Origin: a virus
Strand: one strand, 5' to 3'
Virus record (IMG/VR): IMGVR_UViG_3300032893_000028
Location: 9,972 to 73,971 of that record
Length of the DNA: 64,000 nt
Each line of letters begins with the position of its first letter. Position 1 is the stretch's first letter. Under the pieces are notes generated by a model. That model did not search any database. It worked only from the letters and a program-made list of their open reading frames with translations, and was not told where the DNA came from. The translations under genes were made by a program, and so were the position numbers. Below, piece after piece: positions 1,660 through 44,319 of the stretch.

Positions 1660-2589
1660 GTGGCGGATAGGCTCTACGACCGCCGCGCGCGCGTGACCTT
1701 CGCGTCGCCCACCAGCACGACTAAGACGACCCAGACCACCGGCGACATCCGCGTCGACTACACGACCGTCACGAGCGACGTGCTCGTCGTCGAGGCGGGC
1801 GAAGGCGGCGAGCGGCCGGCGGGGCTGCGCATCTCGTTCAAGGTGACCAAGACCGACGGCAAGGAGCCCAACACGGCCGAGATCGTCGTCACCAATTTGA
1901 ACGACGACAGTCGCGGGCTCATCCAGAAGAAGGGGACCAAGATCATCCTCGAGGCGGGCTACGCGAGCACGGGCGTCTCGCGCATCTGGCGCGGGGACGC
2001 GCGCACGGTCGACAACGTGCGCGACGGCGCCGACTGGAACTCGACGATCAAGGGCGGCGACGGCGAGCGCGCCTACAAGCTGGCGCGCGTGTCGGAGAGC
2101 TTCGCACCGGGGACGCAGGCGGGCGCCATCCTGCAGTACCTGGCCAACGCCAGCGGGCTGCAGATCGGCAACACGCCCGACGTTGTCCTGAACCTGACGC
2201 AGTCCTTCGACCAGGGCTACGTCGTCTCGGGGCAGTGGGCGCACGAGATGGACCGATTCCTCAGGGGCACGGGCTATGCGTGGAGCGTGCAGGACGACAC
2301 GCTCCAGGTGCTCTTACCCGGTCAGGCGTCGACGGCCGAGTTTCCCGAGATCTCGCCCGACAGCGGTCTCATCGGCTCGCCCGAATTCGGCTCGCCCGAG
2401 AAGAAGGGCAAGCCGGCGCTAGTCAAGTTTCGCTCACTGCTCCAGCCGTGCGTACCGGGAGCGAAATTGGTCCTGCGTTCCCGTCGATATAACGGCCCCG
2501 TGCGGGTGAAAAAAATATCCATAATTGGTGACACGCATGGCGCCGAGTGGTACACCGACTACGAAGGCGTGTTACTATCGACGACGTGA
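1660..2589 (+). CDS. Baseplate hub protein
   Basis: 'PNTAEIVVTNL', 'ILEAGY', 'WSVQD', 'SGLIGSP', 'GDTHGAEW' motifs of phage hub proteins. Confidence 0.8.
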   Translation: MADRLYDRRARVTFASPTSTTKTTQTTGDIRVDYTTVTSDVLVVEAGEGGERPAGLRISFKVTKTDGKEPNTAEIVVTNLNDDSRGLIQKKGTKIILEAGYASTGVSRIWRGDARTVDNVRDGADWNSTIKGGDGERAYKLARVSESFAPGTQAGAILQYLANASGLQIGNTPDVVLNLTQSFDQGYVVSGQWAHEMDRFLRGTGYAWSVQDDTLQVLLPGQASTAEFPEISPDSGLIGSPEFGSPEKKGKPALVKFRSLLQPCVPGAKLVLRSRRYNGPVRVKKISIIGDTHGAEWYTDYEGVLLSTT

Positions 2590-2605
2590 GAGCCAGCGCG
2601 TGGGA

Positions 2606-2725
2606 GTGAAGTTGCTCGGCCGTCGAACCTACAAGCTACGCAAGCGGGGGCAGAAAGCGCAGGCGCCGCGCGGGGCGTCGGCCGGTAAGCGCAAGCGCTG
2701 CCCGACCTGCGGGGCGCAGCGGTGA
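2606..2725 (+). CDS. Small basic protein with CxxC
   Basis: 39-aa frame filling the gap between hub and spike, overlapping the next start; KRKRCPTCG. Confidence 0.3.
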   Translation: MKLLGRRTYKLRKRGQKAQAPRGASAGKRKRCPTCGAQR

Positions 2726-3471
2726 GCGACCAGGAGCGCGACGAGGAGGTCCGCCGGCCCAGGCGACAGACCGTCATCGCCGCCGCCGTCGAGGCCGCGC
2801 TCAAGCGCCTGCCGCGCGCGCTGCCCGCGCGCGTGGTCTCGTACGATTCGTCGATGCAGCGCGTCTCGTGCAAGGTGCTCGTCATGCGCCCGTTCTTCGA
2901 CGAGGAGGACGCGCGTCAAGTCGAGTCGATCCCCGTCGTCCCAGGCGTCCCGGTCGTGTTCCCGGGCGCCAACGGCAGCTTCCGCACGACTGTGCCCATC
3001 TCCGACGGCAACCTGCAGATCAACGGCGCGACCGTGCCGGCCACGACGGGCCTGCTCATCTGGGCCGACCGCTCGCTCGACAAGTGGCTGACGGGCAAGG
3101 GCGACGAGGTCGACCCCGAGTTCGACCACGCCAACTCCATCGCCGACGCGTTCTTCTTGCCCGGGCTCAACCCCTTCGGCGCGCCGCTGGCGTACGCGCC
3201 GACGGACCGCATGACCATCGGCCGCGACCAGTCGCCCTCGGACATCGAAATCGATGGCGGCGGAAACGTCAACGTGGCGAATGGCTCCAACGGGGCGGCG
3301 CGCGTGGGCGACCCAAGCCAGATAGGAACGCCGCTCTCGACGTGGATGAGCCAGGTGGAGACGGCCATCAACCTGATCGCCGGTGGCTCCGTCGTTCCGC
3401 TCTCCTCCACGTTCCTGACGTCGCCGGGCATCACCGTTAAGACGGGTTCCAGCAAGGTCAAAATCGGGTAG
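2722..3471 (+). CDS. Baseplate central spike (Gp138-like)
   Basis: 'LPARVVSYD', 'VPVVFP', 'LLIWADRSLDKW', 'ADAFFLPG', 'AARVGD'. Confidence 0.8.
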   Translation: MSDQERDEEVRRPRRQTVIAAAVEAALKRLPRALPARVVSYDSSMQRVSCKVLVMRPFFDEEDARQVESIPVVPGVPVVFPGANGSFRTTVPISDGNLQINGATVPATTGLLIWADRSLDKWLTGKGDEVDPEFDHANSIADAFFLPGLNPFGAPLAYAPTDRMTIGRDQSPSDIEIDGGGNVNVANGSNGAARVGDPSQIGTPLSTWMSQVETAINLIAGGSVVPLSSTFLTSPGITVKTGSSKVKIG

Positions 3472-3480
3472 AATCGGCCC

Positions 3481-3858
3481 ATGGCCGACCCGGTTCGCGA
3501 TTTCGCCCTGGACGACGACGGCGACATGGCGGTGGCCAACGGCGACCGCGTGGTAGTCGCGGGGCAAGACGCTGTGGCGCAGGCGTGCAAGGTCAAGCTC
3601 AAGCTCTTCCTCAAGGAGATTTTCCTCGACCAATCGCTCGGCGTCGACTACCTGGGCGTGGTACTGGTTAAGAACCCCGACCCGATCGTCGTGCGCGAGG
3701 CCATCCGCGCGCGCCTGCTCTCCGTGGCGGACGTGATCGAGGTCGTCGGCGCGCAGCTCCTCTTCAGCGACCCGAATGACCCGCGCTCGGCCAGCATCGC
3801 CTACTCCATCCGCACCAACTACTCGCAGACGCCTATCACCGACACGGTGAGCCCGTAA
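3481..3858 (+). CDS. Baseplate wedge/sheath-initiator (gp25-like) protein
   Basis: 'DAVAQACKVKLKLFLKEIFLD..LGVDY'; lies between spike and baseplate J. Confidence 0.75.
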   Translation: MADPVRDFALDDDGDMAVANGDRVVVAGQDAVAQACKVKLKLFLKEIFLDQSLGVDYLGVVLVKNPDPIVVREAIRARLLSVADVIEVVGAQLLFSDPNDPRSASIAYSIRTNYSQTPITDTVSP

Positions 3859-39334: not shown

Positions 39335-39352
39335 CCCCGATACCTCCAGCAG

Positions 39353-39433
39353 TGGGCGCTCGTGGAGTCGAACCACGTCGGCCGAAGCTGCGGCTCTACA
39401 GGCCGCCCCGCGTCCCTAACGGTCTACGCGCCC
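39353..39433 (-). tRNA. tRNA-Tyr(GTA), type II, no encoded CCA
   Basis: Acceptor GGGCGC/GCGCCC + A73; anticodon arm GCGGC-CTGTAGA-GCCGC; variable arm GC-TTCG-GC; T arm CGTGG-TTCGACT-CCACG; D arm irregular. Confidence 0.7.
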
Positions 39434-40050
39434 GGCTGAAGCGGGTTGACCTGCCAGCTCGGTTCAACCTGGCGCCAGACCTCGGCGGCCTGGGCGAACT
39501 CCGTGGCGTTGAGCGCTCGCAGGTTCACGTTGATGAACTGCTGGCCCGTGCGCCCGTCGAGCTTGGGCTTGCCGAGCTTGTCCACCGCCGGAACGCCATC
39601 GGACGCAAACATGAGACCGGTGAAAGGCTGTTCGGAAGAATACGTCTTGACCGTGCCGGGCGTGTCAACGTCGTGGGGCCCACATCCGCAGGCGGCCATG
39701 ATGAACTTGGCGATGCGGCTGTCGTAGCCTTCCTTGTCGGCGCGCTCCATGATCGTGCGCGGGGTGCCGACCTGGACCTTGGGGTTGTTGGTCGCGACCA
39801 CGCGCACTTCCACGAGGTACGTACCAATCTTGCCGATGCGCGTCCTGAAGTACTTGATGCGGTCGACCACGAGGATTTGGGAGCACTGTCCGTCGGTGAA
39901 GAGCTGCGGGTAGCGCGCGCCCCCGGCCTTCTGCGCCGCATCACTCATGTTGGCGAAGTCGTCGTAGCCGTCATCGGCGGGGGCCTGCGCCGCGGCCTGG
40001 GGCGGCGCAGTCTCCGGGGCGGTGGCGGGGCGTTTGTCGAAGATTCCCAT
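39424..40050 (-). CDS. Probable ssDNA-binding / replication accessory protein
   Basis: Position in the replication module, own promoter, strong SD; beta-rich; no diagnostic motif. Confidence 0.45.
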   Translation of the reverse strand: MGIFDKRPATAPETAPPQAAAQAPADDGYDDFANMSDAAQKAGGARYPQLFTDGQCSQILVVDRIKYFRTRIGKIGTYLVEVRVVATNNPKVQVGTPRTIMERADKEGYDSRIAKFIMAACGCGPHDVDTPGTVKTYSSEQPFTGLMFASDGVPAVDKLGKPKLDGRTGQQFINVNLRALNATEFAQAAEVWRQVEPSWQVNPLQPGA

Positions 40051-40088: not shown

Positions 40089-40129
40089 ATGCTCGCCTAC
40101 TGGCGAACGTTCGTCAACAGAAATCTACT
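40089..40129 (-). promoter_or_regulatory. Promoter motif copy 6
   Basis: AGATTTCTGTTGACGAAC. Confidence 0.6.
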
Positions 40130-40130
40130 C

Positions 40131-40391
40131 AGTCGTGAACGCGAGGGACGAGGGTAGAACTTCAATCGGCTTGCTAATCACTTGCGGCTCATTTCTCACC
40201 ACTGACCGCTGAGCGCTGTTTCAGCTAAACGCTGACCGCTCGGGTGCCGATGGTTTTTGCCTTGTGAGGGCGTCAATGTATGCCTCGCATACGCACCGTC
40301 GTGCGCGACATCGTCATACTGACCGACGCGCGACCAAACGATGGAGTTTGCCGATTCCGTCGCCCTATCCTCGTCCCTCGCGTCCACGACT
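40131..40391 (-). ncRNA. Candidate structured ncRNA closed by a 27-bp stem
   Basis: 40131-40157 pairs with 40365-40391 (25/27 Watson-Crick); inner AATCGGC/GCCGATT; internal hairpins; AGCGNTC-like short repeats; strand inferred from context. Confidence 0.55.
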
Positions 40392-40398
40392 TCCTGAT

Positions 40399-40899
40399 CT
40401 AGACCAAGAGCGTCTTGTGATTGATCGTCTCGACGGCATCGTTGAGCGCGTCGAATGCCTCTTGCTCGGTGCAGATCATCTCCGTCCGCATCATCTCCGG
40501 GCAGTCGCACACGGTGAGCACCGGAATGTCGGCGTACTGCCCGTTCATCACCACGCGTGTGAGCTTGTTGAGCTTCTTGCTATTCTGCACCGTCAAGCTC
40601 TTCAGCCACACGATGCGCGCCTTGTGCTCCTGCAGCTCCGCCGTGGCCTGCGCCAGCGGCATTTCGCGCTCGCCCACCTTGATCACTGTTCGCGCATTGG
40701 TGACGCGCAGCTGCGATTCGAGCCCAATCAGCTCGACGCGAATCGCGTTGGCGCGCTCCAGCATCGCGTTGAACGCGAACGCCGGAGGATCCGACTCCTG
40801 ATACGTCACCGACGCTGCGGCGCGGTCCAGAGTCTCCTTGTACTCGCCCTTGAGCTTCGCGATGCGCCGAAGTGCCTGCGAGATCGTTTTCCGTTCCAT
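40399..40899 (-). CDS. Long-helix coiled-coil protein (DIP1984/DUF6847-like)
   Basis: 'TISQALRRIAKLK', 'LESQLRVTNART', 'PLAQA', 'LNDAVETINHKT'. Confidence 0.6.
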   Translation of the reverse strand: MERKTISQALRRIAKLKGEYKETLDRAAASVTYQESDPPAFAFNAMLERANAIRVELIGLESQLRVTNARTVIKVGEREMPLAQATAELQEHKARIVWLKSLTVQNSKKLNKLTRVVMNGQYADIPVLTVCDCPEMMRTEMICTEQEAFDALNDAVETINHKTLLV

Positions 40900-40924
40900 C
40901 CCTGTTTACCTCCGTCGAGAAGTC

Positions 40925-40964
40925 AACCTAGACTCCTCTGTCGCGTTCGTCAACTAAAATCTTT
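40925..40964 (-). promoter_or_regulatory. Promoter motif copy 7 (TTGACG-17-TAGGTT)
   Basis: AGATTTTAGTTGACGAAC. Confidence 0.7.
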
Positions 40965-42833
40965 CTATCCGCCGCACCGCTCGTCTTCCTCGACGAAATC
41001 TAGGCCGACCTTGTCGGCGTAGTAGAGGCGCTGGGGCTCCTTGGTCTCCGTGTCGCGCCACGCCTCGCGCCAGGCGGCGCAGAGCGCATTGCGCAGCGCG
41101 CGGTCGCCGACGTGCACGGCGCACTCGACCTCCTCGGCGCGCTGGCCGGCGCGGTGCCAGCGCCCGAGGAGCTGCTCCCAGCGGCCGTTGGATGACGGCG
41201 GGGTCAGGACCAGGCCCCGGCGGAAGTGCTGCAGGTTCTTGCCCGTGCCATGCGCAGCGATGCTGGCGGCGCAGGCCGGCCCGCGGAACTCGACGATCTG
41301 GTCGCCCTCCGAGCCGGCGCGGAAGACCGGCAGCCCGCGCGAGGCCAGCTTCTCGCCGACAGCGCGGTGGTCGTACCAGACGACCAGCGGCCCCGCGCCC
41401 TCGCCGACCGCGCGCTCGACGTCGCGCCAGACCAGCTCGCGGTCGAGCCAGACCGTCTCCTTGGGCGGCTCGGGCCGGTAACGGTCGGCGACGGCGAGCC
41501 ACGCGGCGTATTCGGCCGACTGCACCTCGCCGCGCTCGACCGCCCGGCGGAGCAGCTCCGGCGAGTCGCAGCCCGAGCGCGAGCGGCGCGAGAGCCAATC
41601 GCGCTGGAATCCGCGCCAGGCCGCGCGGGCGTCGAGCCACTCCTGGTCCTTGCCGTTCGGCCACACCCAGCGGTAGTAGAAGCCGAGGTAGAGCTGCTTG
41701 GCGAAGCGCGCCACCTCCTTGGCGTCGACCAGGTCCTGACCGCCGACGGACCACAGCTTGCGCAGTTCGGCGAGCGCTGCGGCGACTGGGGCCGACTCGG
41801 GCATAGTCCGGCCGCGCAGCATCAGCCGGCAGTCGACCGATGCGCCGGACGTGGCCACGACACCCGGAGTCTCGGTCGCGCGGCGGCGGAAGATGCGCCA
41901 GGCGACGAGGCGGCGCACGGTCAAAGCCGAAGAGTGGTCCGAGACGAAGAGCTGTTGTTCTTCGTGCGATAGCTTGCTTATTTCGCCTTCCAGGTCCGCC
42001 GGGCCGCAGAGGTCGAGCAGTGCGCCGGGCTCTATCGGGTCGGCGCCGGCCTCGGGGTTGGGGTCCACGGCCCGGCCCCAATCGTCGGCCTCGTGGAAGC
42101 TGCGCGGGACGTGGGAGAGCGCGCGGAGCGACCGCGCGGGGAGCCGGCGCGAGCGCTTGACGCCCTTGGAGCCGAGCGTGCCCGATAAGAAGCAGACCGG
42201 CGCGTCGGGGCGCGCGTCGGCCTCGCGCCAGAAGCGCTCGGAGCGCACCGAGTCGTTCTCGAGCGTGTGCGCCTCGTTGCAGATGAAAGCGTCGGGGTCG
42301 AGGCGCTCGAGCACGTCGCCCTTCGAGGTCGAGGAGAGCTCGGAGTAGGAGACGACGCCGACGATCCGGTCGAGCGGCAGGCGAAAGTGACGGCCGTAGC
42401 GGGGGAGGTCCACGTCGAGCATCTGCGACTTGAGTCTGGCCTCGGTCAGGATGACGGCGCGCCGGGCCTGGAGCGCGTCGGGCAGGAGGAGGCAGGCGAG
42501 CTCCTTGCCATGCCCGACGCCGACCGGGGCATAGAGCCCCCCGACGCGCTCGGCCTCGAGCAGCACGGCCGACTGTATGGGGCGCAGGCGCGGCTGGCGC
42601 GGGTGACCGTCGGGGTCGCGGCAGAGGTCGCAGCCGGGGCAGTCGGCGTTGGGGATTAACCAGATGGGCGTGAGGTCGACGGCGGCGGGGTCAAGGACGC
42701 GGCGCGGGAGGGTCGAGATCCGCTTCCACTCCGAGGACCGCCCGACGCCCTTGGCCGCCAGCGCGCGGTCGGCGAGCGTGCCGCGCTTGATGGCGACGCC
42801 GGTCTTCTCGCGGAGGAGGTCGGAGAGGGACAC
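40965..42833 (-). CDS. SF2-like helicase with atypical Walker B
   Basis: 'LRPIQ', 'VGVGHGKE', 'CNEAH', 'LSGT', 'GTGKNLQ', 'EQLLGRWHRAGQ'. Confidence 0.8.
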   Translation of the reverse strand: MSLSDLLREKTGVAIKRGTLADRALAAKGVGRSSEWKRISTLPRRVLDPAAVDLTPIWLIPNADCPGCDLCRDPDGHPRQPRLRPIQSAVLLEAERVGGLYAPVGVGHGKELACLLLPDALQARRAVILTEARLKSQMLDVDLPRYGRHFRLPLDRIVGVVSYSELSSTSKGDVLERLDPDAFICNEAHTLENDSVRSERFWREADARPDAPVCFLSGTLGSKGVKRSRRLPARSLRALSHVPRSFHEADDWGRAVDPNPEAGADPIEPGALLDLCGPADLEGEISKLSHEEQQLFVSDHSSALTVRRLVAWRIFRRRATETPGVVATSGASVDCRLMLRGRTMPESAPVAAALAELRKLWSVGGQDLVDAKEVARFAKQLYLGFYYRWVWPNGKDQEWLDARAAWRGFQRDWLSRRSRSGCDSPELLRRAVERGEVQSAEYAAWLAVADRYRPEPPKETVWLDRELVWRDVERAVGEGAGPLVVWYDHRAVGEKLASRGLPVFRAGSEGDQIVEFRGPACAASIAAHGTGKNLQHFRRGLVLTPPSSNGRWEQLLGRWHRAGQRAEEVECAVHVGDRALRNALCAAWREAWRDTETKEPQRLYYADKVGLDFVEEDERCGG

Positions 42834-43055: not shown

Positions 43056-44050
43056 TTCTCCCACGGCAGCCGCTCGACCTCGCACCCGGCCGCGCGGTGG
43101 TGGCCGCCCCCGCCGAAGGCCTTGGCGATGGCGGAGACGTCGGGGGCGGTCCGAACGGCGACAGTACGCATGCCGATGTATACGTTCTCTGGGTGTAGCT
43201 CCTCCGAATCTACGTCCCGGCTGCGCAGCGACACGCGCCACTTGCCCGACGGGCCGTCCTTGTAGTAGACGACCCCAATCGCATCGAAGCCCCGGCGCGC
43301 GGACTCGAGCGCGAGCGCCTCGCCAACCTCGCTCTGCAGGACCGAGGAGCAGGCGGCGAGGGCACTCGCGAACTTCACCGGACCGAAAGACGCGTCACCA
43401 TTCTCGACGATTGGATCGATGTATTCGATCTCCACCTCCTCCGCGGTCGCGACGATGCGCTCGACCATGAGGCGCTCGGCGCGGAGGATGACGGCGCCGT
43501 CCTGCATGAGCGACTCGCTGATCGGGCTGAATCTACAATCATTATAAATTGGGATCAGCGCGCGGAAGTCCGTCAGCGCGCCGGAGGCCGCGAGCGCCGC
43601 CGAGACCTCCTTCGAGTGCGGCAGCTCCCAGCGCCAGAGATCGCGGTCCTGGACGTAGGCGAACAGCTCGGGGAGCATTGTTTCGTTTCGCGACGTCGTA
43701 CGCCCGTGGAATCGGAACCACGCCAGCGCCGCGCCCGAGTGGTCCATGTCGAACGTGCAGAACTCAAGTCCCTCGCAGTCGGCCTTCGCCGACTTGTGGT
43801 GGTCGATCACTTCGAGATGTCCACCGTCCGGCGACGCGCACGCCGCCGCCATCCGCTCCAGTTCCGCCCGCGGGTACGAGAAGTCGAGCACGTATACGTC
43901 GCGCCCGCGCACCTCGTCGTCCGTCGGCGCCGGGTCACCGTAGCTCGCCGGGCGGTACTCGGCCTCGTCGCCGAACTTGAGCCAGGCCGCGAGCGCCGCG
44001 GCGGCGCCGTCGAGGCAGCCCTTGTGGTAGATAATGAGGGGCTTGCTCAC
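43052..44050 (-). CDS. DHH/DHHA1 phosphoesterase
   Basis: 'YHKGCLDG', 'LDFS', 'IDHH', 'SGAALAW', 'VQDRDLW', 'SLRS', 'GGGGH..AAG'. Confidence 0.9.
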   Translation of the reverse strand: MSKPLIIYHKGCLDGAAAALAAWLKFGDEAEYRPASYGDPAPTDDEVRGRDVYVLDFSYPRAELERMAAACASPDGGHLEVIDHHKSAKADCEGLEFCTFDMDHSGAALAWFRFHGRTTSRNETMLPELFAYVQDRDLWRWELPHSKEVSAALAASGALTDFRALIPIYNDCRFSPISESLMQDGAVILRAERLMVERIVATAEEVEIEYIDPIVENGDASFGPVKFASALAACSSVLQSEVGEALALESARRGFDAIGVVYYKDGPSGKWRVSLRSRDVDSEELHPENVYIGMRTVAVRTAPDVSAIAKAFGGGGHHRAAGCEVERLPWEK

Positions 44051-44319
44051 GACGACACCGCCGCCAGCAGCTTCTCGAGCTGACGGATCTTTCCGATCGC
44101 CAATCGCTTTCTCCTGAACGCTCCGAAGAAGACGCGCCTGCCGCGCGCGTCGACCTTCGAGACGACGAAACGGCGATACGACGAGCGCGTGATGCGGTAG
44201 CCGCTCGGCGAGCGGATGTCGCTCCGATTGGCCCACCAGCCCTCGGGAATGCCATACTTCTTCTCGTAGGCGCGCACGGCGCGCTCCACGAATGTTTCAC
44301 GACACAGCATCTTCTTCAC
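44047..44319 (-). CDS. Hypothetical basic protein
   Basis: Coupled ORF. Confidence 0.5.
   Translation of the reverse strand: MKKMLCRETFVERAVRAYEKKYGIPEGWWANRSDIRSPSGYRITRSSYRRFVVSKVDARGRRVFFGAFRRKRLAIGKIRQLEKLLAAVSS

What the first reader, a model, noticed from the sequence alone, without database searches (positions are those of the whole stretch)
40131..40964. Self-contained unit: promoter, coiled-coil protein gene and ~260-nt structured RNA
Seen: promoter copy 7 precedes a single 166-aa long-helix protein (DIP1984/DUF6847-like by my recognition). Seven nt after its stop begins an apparently non-coding block whose ends pair over 27 bp (40131-57 with 40365-91; one wobble, one mismatch), with an inner 7-bp helix, hairpins (GTATGC-CTC-GCATAC) and short repeats AGCGGTC AGCGTTT AGCTGAAAC AGCGCTC AGCGGTC. 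The next gene has its own promoter, so the block is not its leader, and it is far larger than a terminator in an otherwise tightly packed genome. Inference: a protein + ncRNA ribonucleoprotein module, for example an oligomer binding repeated RNA sites or an RNA-regulated effector. I do not recognise it as a described system.
Basis: partly seen in the sequence, partly recalled or inferred. Interest (0 to 1): 0.8.

Follow-up and report, generated by a model that had tools for sequence, protein, structure and literature searches.

The report
Phage heptad-repeat RNA with partner protein
Directly behind a small helical-protein gene of unknown function, this 74-kb wetland phage encodes a real, conserved, folded RNA of about 260 bases carrying ten AGC units spaced 7 bases apart; the same gene-plus-RNA pair is present in 45 of 46 relatives and in phage T5, matched no Rfam family, and probably forms an undescribed protein-RNA particle.

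Summary
A dedicated promoter (40944-40962) precedes a 166-aa gene (40399-40899, minus strand). Seven nt after its stop lies a 261-nt non-coding block (40131-40391) closed by a 27-bp helix.

The short repeats are a 10-unit heptad array (40169-40241), with unit consensus N-A-G-C-N-N-U.

45 of 46 relatives' loci (31-54% protein identity, low- to high-GC phages) carry the same architecture right after the gene. The closing helix covaries: 15 of 15 pairs show double changes, and 0 of 500 shuffles match the observed score. Strand-specific RNA marks point to an RNA on the gene strand: G-U pairs, and 46 GNRA/UNCG-capped hairpins on the sense strand against 6 on the antisense strand.

The array layout is fixed: 3 units, a spacer, then 7 units, spanning about 71 nt.

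The protein has the DIP1984 fold (PDB 3KDQ, Z 15.1). No neighbouring gene is conserved, but tRNA genes are often nearby.

Phage T5 has the pair too: T5.085 plus an unannotated gap.

There is no Rfam match, and RAGATH-27 does not match. Protein-RNA binding and the function remain inferred.

This scan has already reported the same class in at least 8 other genomes. The papers I could search do not describe it.

The parts
40925..40962 (-). Dedicated promoter of the unit: extended -35 motif AGATTTTAGTTGACGAACG (40944-40962; TTGACG at 40948-40953), a 17-nt spacer, then a -10-like TAGGTT (40925-40930).
   Evidence: 11 copies of the motif in the window against 0.04 expected. The aligned copies all point into genes. 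Activity as a promoter is inferred.
40399..40899 (-). Gene for a 166-aa DIP1984-fold protein, a phage branch of DUF6847. It has four helices and two beta-hairpins, with a basic first helix.
   Evidence: ORF. Pfam PF20935 E 1.2e-5, below the cut-off. NCBIfam DIP1984_fam 24 bits against a cut-off of 70. AF2 pLDDT 97.1. 3KDQ: TM 0.79-0.85; Z 15.1, rmsd 2.9 A over 150 residues. 621 clusters at E<=1e-3. Helix 1 has mean net charge +4.6.
40131..40391 (-). The structured non-coding RNA as a whole (261 nt), starting 7 nt after the stop codon.
   Evidence: Fold z = -7.1. The same architecture occurs in 45 of 46 relatives' loci. Stops in all three sense frames in 39 of 42 elements. No Rfam match.
40365..40391 (-). 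5' arm of the closing helix P1 (purine-rich strand).
   Evidence: Covariation of the P1 core in 35 sequences: 82.4% of cells paired, 15 of 15 pairs with changes on both sides, 0 of 500 shuffles as high. Cognate arms pair at -49.5 against -29 kcal/mol for non-cognate arms.
40131..40157 (-). 3' arm of the closing helix P1 (pyrimidine-rich strand), followed by the T-rich GAGTAGATTTCTGTT.
   Evidence: A T-rich tract follows the helix in 20 of 42 elements against 5% background.
40350..40356 (-). Inner extension of P1: AAUCGGC pairs with GCCGAUU at 40164-40170. A second AUCGGCAC copy at 40244-40251 could pair with the same partner instead.
   Evidence: The GGCA...AGCC pairing recurs in L011, L013, L030 and L040. 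The alternative pairing is read from the sequence.
40278..40292 (-). Internal hairpin GUAUGC-GAG-GCAUAC in the variable 5' domain.
   Evidence: In relatives this domain holds GNRA/UNCG-capped hairpins: 46 on the sense strand against 6 on the antisense strand.
40244..40251 (-). Conserved motif AUCGGCAC (family consensus A-Y-C-G-R-Y-A-C, e.g. ACCGAUAC, AUCGACAC), located just 5' of the array.
   Evidence: Alignments. Also present in T5 as UACCGACAC.
40169..40241 (-). Heptad array of ten units, laid out as 3 + 7. Units: AGCGGUC, AGCGUUU, AGCUGAAAC (this step is 9 nt), AGCGCUC, AGCGGUC, AGUGGUG, AGAAAUG, AGCCGCA, AGUGAUU, AGCAAGC.
   Evidence: Family-wide: 3 units, a step of 8-12 nt (mostly 9), then 7 units, spanning about 71 nt. 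Ten units is the mode (19 of 42). Unit consensus N-A-G-C(79%)-N-N-U(74%).
40108..40126 (-). Promoter motif of the next gene (208-aa ORF 39424-40050). It marks the end of the unit.
39352..39433 (-). tRNA-Tyr(GTA), the only tRNA gene found in the window, about 700 nt downstream of the RNA. This is context; membership in the module is not shown.
   Evidence: tRNA genes also lie near the module in L008, L009, L014, L019, L022, L035 and in T5.

Best explanation
A two-part phage module makes a ribonucleoprotein.

Shown:
- A dedicated promoter motif precedes the gene for a DIP1984-fold protein.
- Immediately after the gene, on the same strand, lies a conserved ~260-nt structured non-coding RNA.
- The RNA's ends pair into a long, covarying, purine/pyrimidine-asymmetric helix.
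- The 5' domain holds variable hairpins.
- The 3' half is an array of ten U-N-A-G-C-N-N heptads in a fixed 3 + 7 layout.

Inferred:
- Gene and RNA are co-transcribed, and the transcript ends at the closing helix, which is followed by a U-rich tract in about half of the lineages. The long, nearly perfect helix may be cut by RNase III to free the RNA.
- The protein, through its basic N-terminal helix, binds the RNA. One protomer (or one dimer per two units) would read each AGC unit with free spacers, as HutP and TRAP read XAG triplets. That would give a particle of fixed stoichiometry.

The job of the particle is unknown. The module recurs beside tRNA genes, and in some lineages beside Ro60/Y-RNA genes. 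My best guess is therefore a role in RNA or tRNA metabolism, or in host takeover or counter-defence at the RNA level, during early or middle infection.
For: RNA reality:
- Fold z = -7.1.
- The element is present in 45 of 46 relatives' loci, spanning 31-54% protein identity and low-GC to ~68% GC sequence.
- P1 core covariation: 82.4% of cells paired against 71.1% in shuffles and 47-58% when slid; 15 of 15 pairs with double changes; 0 of 500 shuffles as high.
- Cognate arms rank first in 22 of 42 and in the top three in 36 of 42.

Strand:
- The sense helix is more stable in 35 of 42 elements, with 142 G-U pairs against 81.
- GNRA/UNCG-capped hairpins: 46 sense, 6 antisense, 8.7 in shuffles.
- A T-rich tract follows the helix in 20 of 42 against 5% background.

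Non-coding: stops in all three sense frames in 39 of 42 elements.

Array:
- Fixed 3 + 7 layout, modal count of ten units, about 71 nt.
- Unique in the window and absent from shuffles.

Linkage:
- No other conserved neighbouring gene in 46 loci.
- Promoter motifs flank the unit.

Protein:
- pLDDT 97.1; 3KDQ Z 15.1.
- Basic helix 1, +4.6, with invariant Q8, R11 and K17.

Analogy: the HutP motif is UAG-N4-UAG-N4-UAG (PMC2425495).

T5:
- T5.085 hits the family profile at E 3e-5.
- It is followed by an unannotated ~360-nt gap with a 20-bp closing helix (z = -6.2), a UACCGACAC motif and units that by eye recur every 7 nt.
Against: No direct evidence of transcription, processing or binding. No RNA-seq holder was listed.

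The protein is near-neutral overall (median pI 7.0), with an acidic last helix.

The array is not predicted to be more single-stranded than its own shuffles (0.42 against 0.455).

AGC heptad arrays also exist without any DIP1984-like gene in at least 120 viral loci. These are mostly a different CAAGCNN type next to GP88-family genes, so heptad arrays need not be read by this protein.

The window's own element has no GNRA/UNCG-capped hairpin.

tRNA and Ro60 proximity is seen in only about 7 lineages, and this phage has neither Ro60 nor RtcB.
Confidence: 0.6

Rival explanations
1. The RNA works on its own or with a host factor, for example as a sponge or decoy for a host protein or nuclease that reads XAG or AGC units, or as a self-assembling RNA. 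The DIP1984-fold protein is then only a co-expressed helper (chaperone, stabiliser) or acts elsewhere.
For: Only 3-4 of the 7 positions per unit are conserved, as in sites for HutP/TRAP-type host proteins. Heptad AGC arrays occur without DIP1984-like genes in other viral contigs. The protein is not basic overall.
Against: Gene and RNA are linked in 45 of 46 loci with fixed order and spacing, while all other neighbours vary. Such strict co-inheritance is what is expected of physical partners. No HutP-family gene is in the phage.
Confidence: 0.18
2. A toxin-antitoxin-like or defence/counter-defence pair in which the repeat RNA keeps the small protein inactive (it works like a type III TA system), or the pair blocks a host RNA-targeting defence.
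For: It is a self-contained protein-plus-repeat-RNA cassette that moves between unrelated genomic contexts. It is carried by phages. Bacterial relatives, annotated 'septicolysin', are reported on Acinetobacter plasmids.
Against: The order is the reverse of type III TA systems, where the RNA repeats precede the toxin. The unit is 7 nt rather than about 36 nt. The fold is DIP1984, and the PDB fold searches returned no endoribonuclease among their listed matches. No PADLOC hit.
Confidence: 0.1
3. A purely cis-acting 3' UTR: a large terminator or mRNA stabiliser, perhaps with autoregulation of the upstream gene by its own product.
For: The element starts 2-43 nt after the stop codon in nearly all loci. 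A T-rich tract follows the closing helix in 20 of 42.
Against: A terminator does not need a conserved ten-unit array, a conserved AYCGRYAC motif and tetraloop-capped internal hairpins kept across 31-54% protein identity. 22 of 42 elements lack the T tract.
Confidence: 0.08
4. A DNA-level element: a replication origin or priming site, a heptad operator or centromere array like the 7-bp repeats bound by the omega repressor of pSM19035 (from my own knowledge), or a MITE with terminal inverted repeats.
For: In this phage it sits in the replication module, between a helicase-like gene and dUTPase/PolA. It has 27-bp terminal inverted repeats and 7-bp repeats. The complement of YAG is CTR, the DnaG trinucleotide (my own knowledge).
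Against: Single copy in the genome. Fixed position and strand relative to the gene in phages with unrelated neighbourhoods. Sense-strand-specific G-U pairs and GNRA/UNCG loops. Arms covary rather than being conserved. Spacer positions in the units are free.
Confidence: 0.04

Closest known systems
DIP1984 family / Pfam DUF6847 (PF20935), NCBIfam NF038048; crystal structure 3KDQ (Corynebacterium diphtheriae, function unknown; often annotated 'septicolysin')
   Same: Same fold over the whole chain: Z 15.1, rmsd 2.9 A, 150 of 152 residues; TM 0.79-0.85. There is also weak but specific sequence similarity.
   Different: The protein scores below both curated cut-offs (25.7 against 27 bits; 24 against 70 bits), and sequence identity to 3KDQ is 16%. 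It belongs to a phage-dominated branch. I found no paper or annotation that describes a function or an RNA partner for the family.
HutP and the hut terminator RNA of Bacillus subtilis (PMC2425495); TRAP-trp leader (my own knowledge)
   Same: Single-stranded XAG triplets with four free spacer nucleotides, giving a 7-nt period, read by an oligomeric protein. HutP sites come in blocks of three, like the first block here.
   Different: No HutP-family protein is present, and the DIP1984 fold is unrelated. There are ten units, not 3 + 3. A conserved C follows AG and a U lies two positions before it. The array sits inside a closed structured RNA 3' of the gene, not in a 5' leader terminator/antiterminator.
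RAGATH-27 RNA motif (Rfam RF03100), named by earlier notes of this scan as covering part of such RNAs in other clades
   Same: According to those notes, it lies behind DUF6847-like genes in some phages.
   Different: Not matched here. There was no hit at E<=10 in the own genome, in the region, in 14 related loci or in the T5 region.
Y RNA / YrlA with Ro60 (Rsr)
   Same: Ends paired into a long conserved stem that encloses a functional module. In L014 the module lies between tRNA genes and a Ro60 gene that has its own YrlA-like RNA.
   Different: The element has no Y RNA or YrlA match. In L014 the Ro60 gene has a separate YrlA-like hit. This phage has no TROVE or RtcB gene.
Type III toxin-antitoxin systems (ToxIN, CptIN, TenpIN; my own knowledge)
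   Same: A small protein gene next to a tandem-repeat RNA, forming a mobile two-part cassette.
   Different: The RNA lies after the gene, not before it. Units are 7 nt, not about 36 nt. The protein fold is DIP1984 rather than a ToxN-like endoribonuclease. No PADLOC match.

Membership tests
DIP1984 / DUF6847 (protein) | Score at or above the Pfam PF20935 gathering cut-off (27 bits) | tested here: not met
   25.7 bits, E 1.2e-5; 25.1 bits in the genome search. Several homologues do carry PF20935.
DIP1984 / DUF6847 (protein) | Score at or above the NCBIfam NF038048 cut-off (70 bits) | tested here: not met
   24 bits for the window protein; 15-33 bits for three relatives.
DIP1984 / DUF6847 (protein) | Same three-dimensional fold as 3KDQ over the full length | tested here: met
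   AF2 pLDDT 97.1. Foldseek TM 0.79-0.85, prob 1.00. VIA-align Z 15.1, rmsd 2.9 A, 150 residues; the next row has Z 9.1 and covers only a helical hairpin.
RAGATH-27 (Rfam RF03100) | Covariance-model match at or above the gathering score (76.1 bits) | tested here: not met
   No match at E<=10. None in 14 related loci or in T5.
Any Rfam 15 family | Match at the gathering score in the window | tested here: not met
   0 matches in 64 kb. Only chance-level hits at E 1-7 in the region.
HutP-type XAG-repeat RNA/protein system | XAG triplets separated by four free nucleotides | tested here: met
   Ten units at 7-nt steps. AG anchored the units (invariant by construction); C is 79% and U 74% at fixed positions, and the rest are free. 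HutP motif per PMC2425495.
   No PF09021 match in the 74-kb genome. The partner protein has a different fold.
HutP-type XAG-repeat RNA/protein system | Array overlaps a 5' leader terminator/antiterminator of the regulated operon | tested here: not met
   The array lies 3' of the gene, inside a closed RNA, and is followed by the next gene's own promoter.
Type III toxin-antitoxin | Tandem RNA repeats of about 34-36 nt upstream of an endoribonuclease toxin gene | tested here: not met
   7-nt units downstream of the gene. DIP1984 fold. No PADLOC hit.
MITE / transposable element | Several copies in the genome, with insertion polymorphism among relatives | tested here: not met
   Single copy in the complete genome. 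Present at the same place relative to the gene in 45 of 46 divergent loci, with covarying arms.
Y RNA / YrlA | Match to the Y RNA or YrlA covariance models, plus a Ro60 (TROVE) partner gene | tested here: not met
   The element has no such match. No TROVE gene in the genome. In L014 a separate YrlA-like hit lies behind Ro60.
Ribonucleoprotein (protein binds this RNA) | Physical association of the two gene products | not testable with these tools
   Only genomic linkage and charge distribution are available.

The most novel reading that the evidence does not exclude
The pair is a new class of phage ribonucleoprotein of fixed stoichiometry. Ten AGC heptads would be wrapped by ten protomers (or five dimers) of a DIP1984-fold protein on a closed RNA scaffold. 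It is conserved from T5 to jumbo phages and to relatives in bacteria. It would act on tRNA or the translation/RNA-repair machinery, for example to protect or reprogramme tRNA pools or to blunt RNA-targeting host defences.
Probability: 0.3. Interest if true: 0.9.

Novelty: categorically new. Interest (0 to 1): 0.8.

Why it matters
If confirmed, this is a widespread phage-encoded protein-RNA particle that nobody has described. The family profile finds 621 protein clusters at 50% identity.

It would give a first functional handle on the orphan DIP1984/DUF6847 family, whose structure was solved in 2009 without a function. It would also add a new way of reading RNA by 7-nt-spaced units.

Because phage T5 carries a copy (T5.085 plus an unannotated 360-nt gap), the question can be tested directly in a standard laboratory system. 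Its recurrent position beside phage tRNA genes, and in some lineages beside Ro60/Y-RNA genes, suggests a link to the poorly understood RNA biology of phage infection.

Tried and rejected
- Rfam: nothing at gathering score in the whole window. Only chance-level hits at E<=10 in the region.
- RAGATH-27, a lead from earlier notes: no match in the own genome, 14 related loci or T5.
- Close relatives: the single-protein scan of viral contigs and blastn against cultured phages found none. tblastn of a relative (P0009) against phages and plasmids found nothing.
- MITE: rejected; the element is single-copy.
- Conserved partner genes: none. The next most frequent neighbours are D12 methyltransferase (6 loci), HNH endonuclease (5 loci) and Ro60 (2 lineages).
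- Expression: no RNA holder was listed among public runs.
- Selection for an unpaired array: no signal, 0.42 against 0.455 in shuffles.
- Pseudoknot between the AYCGRYAC motif and the first units: looked at by eye and found inconsistent between lineages, so dropped.
- RNA-first search with TAGCGGTYAGCNNTYAGAY: 22 of 23 hits were chance matches with no array, so it was uninformative.
- RNA-first search with six AGC heptads: it found a different class of arrays, not this one.
Covariation was instead counted on the P1 core and by the cognate/non-cognate arm test.
- Literature: no relevant paper for DUF6847, DIP1984, 3KDQ, RAGATH-27, T5.085 or heptanucleotide-repeat RNAs. 'Septicolysin' appears only as an annotation label.
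Full report
**Setting.** The window is bases 9972-73971 of a complete 73,971-bp IMG/VR virus record with direct terminal repeats. GC content is about 62-77%, and the only runs listed as holding this stretch are two wetland metagenomes. The finding lies on the minus strand in the replication region. In transcription order the genes are:
- a helicase-like 622-aa gene (40965-42833);
- the 166-aa gene (40399-40899);
- the non-coding block (40131-40391);
- a 208-aa orphan ORF (39424-40050);
- tRNA-Tyr (39352-39433);
- dUTPase and a PolA-type polymerase.

**Observation.**
- The terminal inverted repeat is 27 nt and 93% complementary, with 207 nt between the arms.
- The stretch folds at -127.7 kcal/mol, z = -7.1 against dinucleotide shuffles.
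- The promoter-like motif AGATTTnnGTTGACGAACG occurs 11 times against 0.04 expected. One copy lies in front of the gene and one directly behind the block, so the unit is bracketed by promoters.
- The short repeats are part of a ten-unit array of AG(C/U) at 7-nt steps, with one 9-nt step after unit 3.
- A run of seven exact steps is unique in the 64 kb on both strands. None of 2000 shuffles exceeded four.
- The element is single-copy in the genome.

**Relatives.** A word-indexed protein search gave 8 homologues at 37-53% identity.
- Of 46 loci other than the window's own phage that include the gene's end, 45 carry the same architecture. In 44 of them it begins 2-43 nt after the stop codon; in L051 it begins about 165 nt after.
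- The exception, L038, has only 167 nt of flank.
- The architecture is: a G-rich 5' strand, variable hairpins, an A-rich linker, a conserved A-Y-C-G-R-Y-A-C motif, the heptad array, and a 3' strand complementary to the 5' strand.
- Base composition ranges from the AT-rich sequence of L008 to this window's high GC.
- The 5' domain has diverged too far for the alignment to hold, while the architecture is kept.

**Is it an RNA, and on which strand?** Four independent lines say it is an RNA on the gene strand.
1. Covariation. On a 35-sequence alignment the 15-pair core of the closing helix has 82.4% of cells paired, against 71.1% in shuffles and 47-58% when the partner is slid. All 15 pairs show changes on both sides. 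0 of 500 shuffles reach any of the five measures. The tool warns that related sequences can beat shuffles without structure, so I also ran an alignment-free test. Each 5' arm pairs with its own 3' arm at -49.5 kcal/mol on average, against about -29 with the arms of other loci. The cognate arm ranks first in 22 of 42 and in the top three in 36 of 42; most better-ranked arms come from close relatives.
2. G-U pairs. The sense-strand helix is more stable than the antisense one in 35 of 42 elements and uses 142 G-U pairs against 81. Several columns are mostly G-U.
3. Tetraloops. Hairpins capped by GNRA or UNCG loops number 46 on the sense strand, 6 on the antisense strand and 8.7 in shuffles. 32 of 42 elements have at least one.
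4. No coding potential. 39 of 42 elements have stops in all three sense frames, and a 7-nt period cannot keep a reading frame.

In addition, a T-rich tract follows the closing helix in 20 of 42 elements against 5% background. The helix therefore probably also ends the transcript in many lineages. In this window the tract is the start of the next promoter motif.

**The array.**
- Across 42 distinct elements the layout is remarkably constant: three units at 7-nt steps, one longer step (8-12 nt, mostly 9), then seven units at 7-nt steps.
- Ten units is the mode (19 of 42). Where fewer are counted, 14-nt steps show that a unit has merely lost its AG, and the span stays near 71 nt.
- The unit consensus is N-A-G-C(79%)-N-N-U(74%). 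AG anchored the units, so its 100% is by construction.
- The first block is the best conserved (YAGCGGU-YAGCNNU-YAGAYY).
- Free spacers with three or four fixed bases are what sequence-specific single-strand readers use. HutP recognises UAG-N4-UAG-N4-UAG, the same period and core, in blocks of three (PMC2425495).
- The array is not predicted to be less paired than its shuffles, so accessibility is not supported by folding alone.

**The closing helix** is strand-asymmetric. The 5' strand is purine-rich (family consensus GGGGGCGGGAGG, alignment A4) and the 3' strand pyrimidine-rich (consensus CNCCCGTNCCC). Changes stay mostly within purine or pyrimidine. This suggests the helix is read as such, but I could not test that.

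**The protein.**
- AlphaFold2 on a 39-sequence alignment gives pLDDT 97.1: four helices and two beta-hairpins.
- The only clear structural match is 3KDQ, the DIP1984 protein of unknown function: Foldseek TM 0.79-0.85; VIA-align Z 15.1, rmsd 2.9 A, 150 of 152 residues. The next row has Z 9.1 on a generic helical hairpin.
- Sequence models score below their cut-offs, so this is a divergent, phage-dominated branch of that superfamily.
- An exhaustive profile search finds 621 clusters at E<=1e-3 and 203 at E<=1e-30.
- The protein is near-neutral overall, with median pI 7.0. Its first helix, carrying the invariant Q8, R11 and K17, has mean net charge +4.6. The last helix has -2.9.
- Weak Foldseek rows to the RSV nucleoprotein N-domain (prob ~0.5, TM 0.14) are not evidence. 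From my own knowledge, RSV N binds 7 nt per protomer in 10-11-mer rings; I note this only as a curiosity.

**Context.**
- All-against-all comparison of ORFs in the 46 loci finds no conserved neighbour other than the gene itself and its shadow frames. The pair is therefore a self-contained cassette.
- tRNA genes recur nearby: the only tRNA found in this window lies 700 nt downstream; L009, a 324-kb phage, has an 18-tRNA array around the module; L014, L019, L022, L035 and L008 also have tRNAs nearby.
- In L014 the order is tRNAs, gene, RNA, Ro60 (TROVE + vWA), then a YrlA-like hit at E 1.4e-6, below its gathering score. L035 also has Ro60.
- This phage has no TROVE or RtcB gene, so the module does not depend on them.

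**Phage T5.** I followed a lead from earlier notes of this scan and fetched AY543070.
- T5.085 (43505-44143, minus strand, annotated hypothetical) matches the family profile at E 3e-5.
- Behind it lies an unannotated gap (43142-43504), which ends at the promoter of T5.084.
- The gap folds with a 20-bp closing helix (z = -6.2).
- It carries UACCGACAC followed by AT-rich units that by eye recur every 7 nt with an AAG-like core; my exact AG-at-7 scan found no run of four or more in T5's first 50 kb.
- It has no Rfam match.
- It lies about 1.6 kb from RNAX and 2.3 kb from tRNA-Arg, at the edge of the T5 tRNA region.
- T5 thus offers a laboratory model.

**What it is not.**
- Not a MITE: single copy, with covarying arms.
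- No Rfam family matched; RAGATH-27 did not match here.
- Not a type III TA system by order, unit size or fold, and there was no PADLOC hit.
- A DNA-level reading (origin, priming site, omega-type heptad operator) is contradicted by the strand-specific RNA marks.

**A complication.** A scan of viral contigs for six perfect AGC heptads returned at least 120 loci, none with a DIP1984-like ORF. 80 of them have the unit CAAGCNN, and 61 of those carry a GP88-family gene (PF17338), with arrays on both sides of the gene. This is a different element. It shows that AGC heptad arrays are not exclusive to this protein, which tempers the inference that the protein reads the units.

**Verdict.** The RNA and its obligatory pairing with the DIP1984-fold gene are well supported; I put this at about 0.9. 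I put the claim that the two form a particle through the array at about 0.6. The function is open, with RNA or tRNA-related host takeover or counter-defence as the leading guess. The same class was already reported by this scan in at least eight other genomes. I found no description of it in Rfam or in the papers I could search.

Noticed in passing
L080-L199 (viral contigs), e.g. L094:531-568 and 1331-1368, L083:1730-2669, L081:2083-2200: A second class of heptad arrays with unit CAAGCNN. It accounts for 80 of 120 loci found with six AGC heptads. 61 of these have a GP88-family gene (Pfam PF17338, E 1.6e-25 in L094). In the loci inspected (e.g. L083, L094) arrays lie on both sides of the gene, about 800 nt apart. 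None of the 120 loci has a DIP1984-like gene.
   Followed up: partly
L055 (phage T5, AY543070) 43142-43504, minus strand: Unannotated ~360-nt gap behind T5.085. It has a 20-bp closing helix (z = -6.2), a UACCGACAC motif and AT-rich period-7 units. This is the T5 counterpart of the RNA, and T5.085 matches the family profile at E 3e-5.
   Followed up: partly
window 39352-39433 (-): tRNA-Tyr(GTA), the only tRNA found in the window. It overlaps the last 10 nt of the 208-aa orphan ORF (39424-40050) and lies about 700 nt downstream of the RNA.
   Followed up: no
L014:4-3594: An RNA-gene cluster in one relative: three tRNA genes, the DIP1984-like gene, the heptad RNA, a Ro60 gene (TROVE + vWA, 1660-3294) and a YrlA-like hit (3493-3594, E 1.4e-6, below its gathering score). 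L035 also has Ro60 about 800 nt downstream of the RNA.
   Followed up: partly
L009:2560-6212 (324-kb phage contig): The module sits inside an array of 18 tRNA genes in a jumbo phage.
   Followed up: no
window 7493-61225 (11 sites): Eleven copies of the extended -35 motif AGATTTnnGTTGACRAAC (0.04 expected), all pointing into genes. The -10 regions are weak (e.g. TAGGTT), so the conserved flanks may serve a phage or host factor other than plain sigma-70.
   Followed up: partly
window 40365-40391 / 40131-40157 and the P1 helices of all relatives: The closing helix is strand-asymmetric in the whole family: a purine-rich 5' strand containing GGAGG-like runs, and a pyrimidine-rich 3' strand containing CCUCC-like runs. 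The reason is unknown.
   Followed up: no
window 40244-40251 and 40350-40356 versus 40164-40170: Two copies of AUCGGC(A) could each pair with the single GCCGAU that follows the array. This may allow an alternative pairing. It is seen only in this element and a few relatives.
   Followed up: no
L185:7075-7160: Eleven tandem AGCGRTC units in a viral contig with no DIP1984-like gene. It looks like a simple tandem repeat rather than the structured RNA.
   Followed up: no
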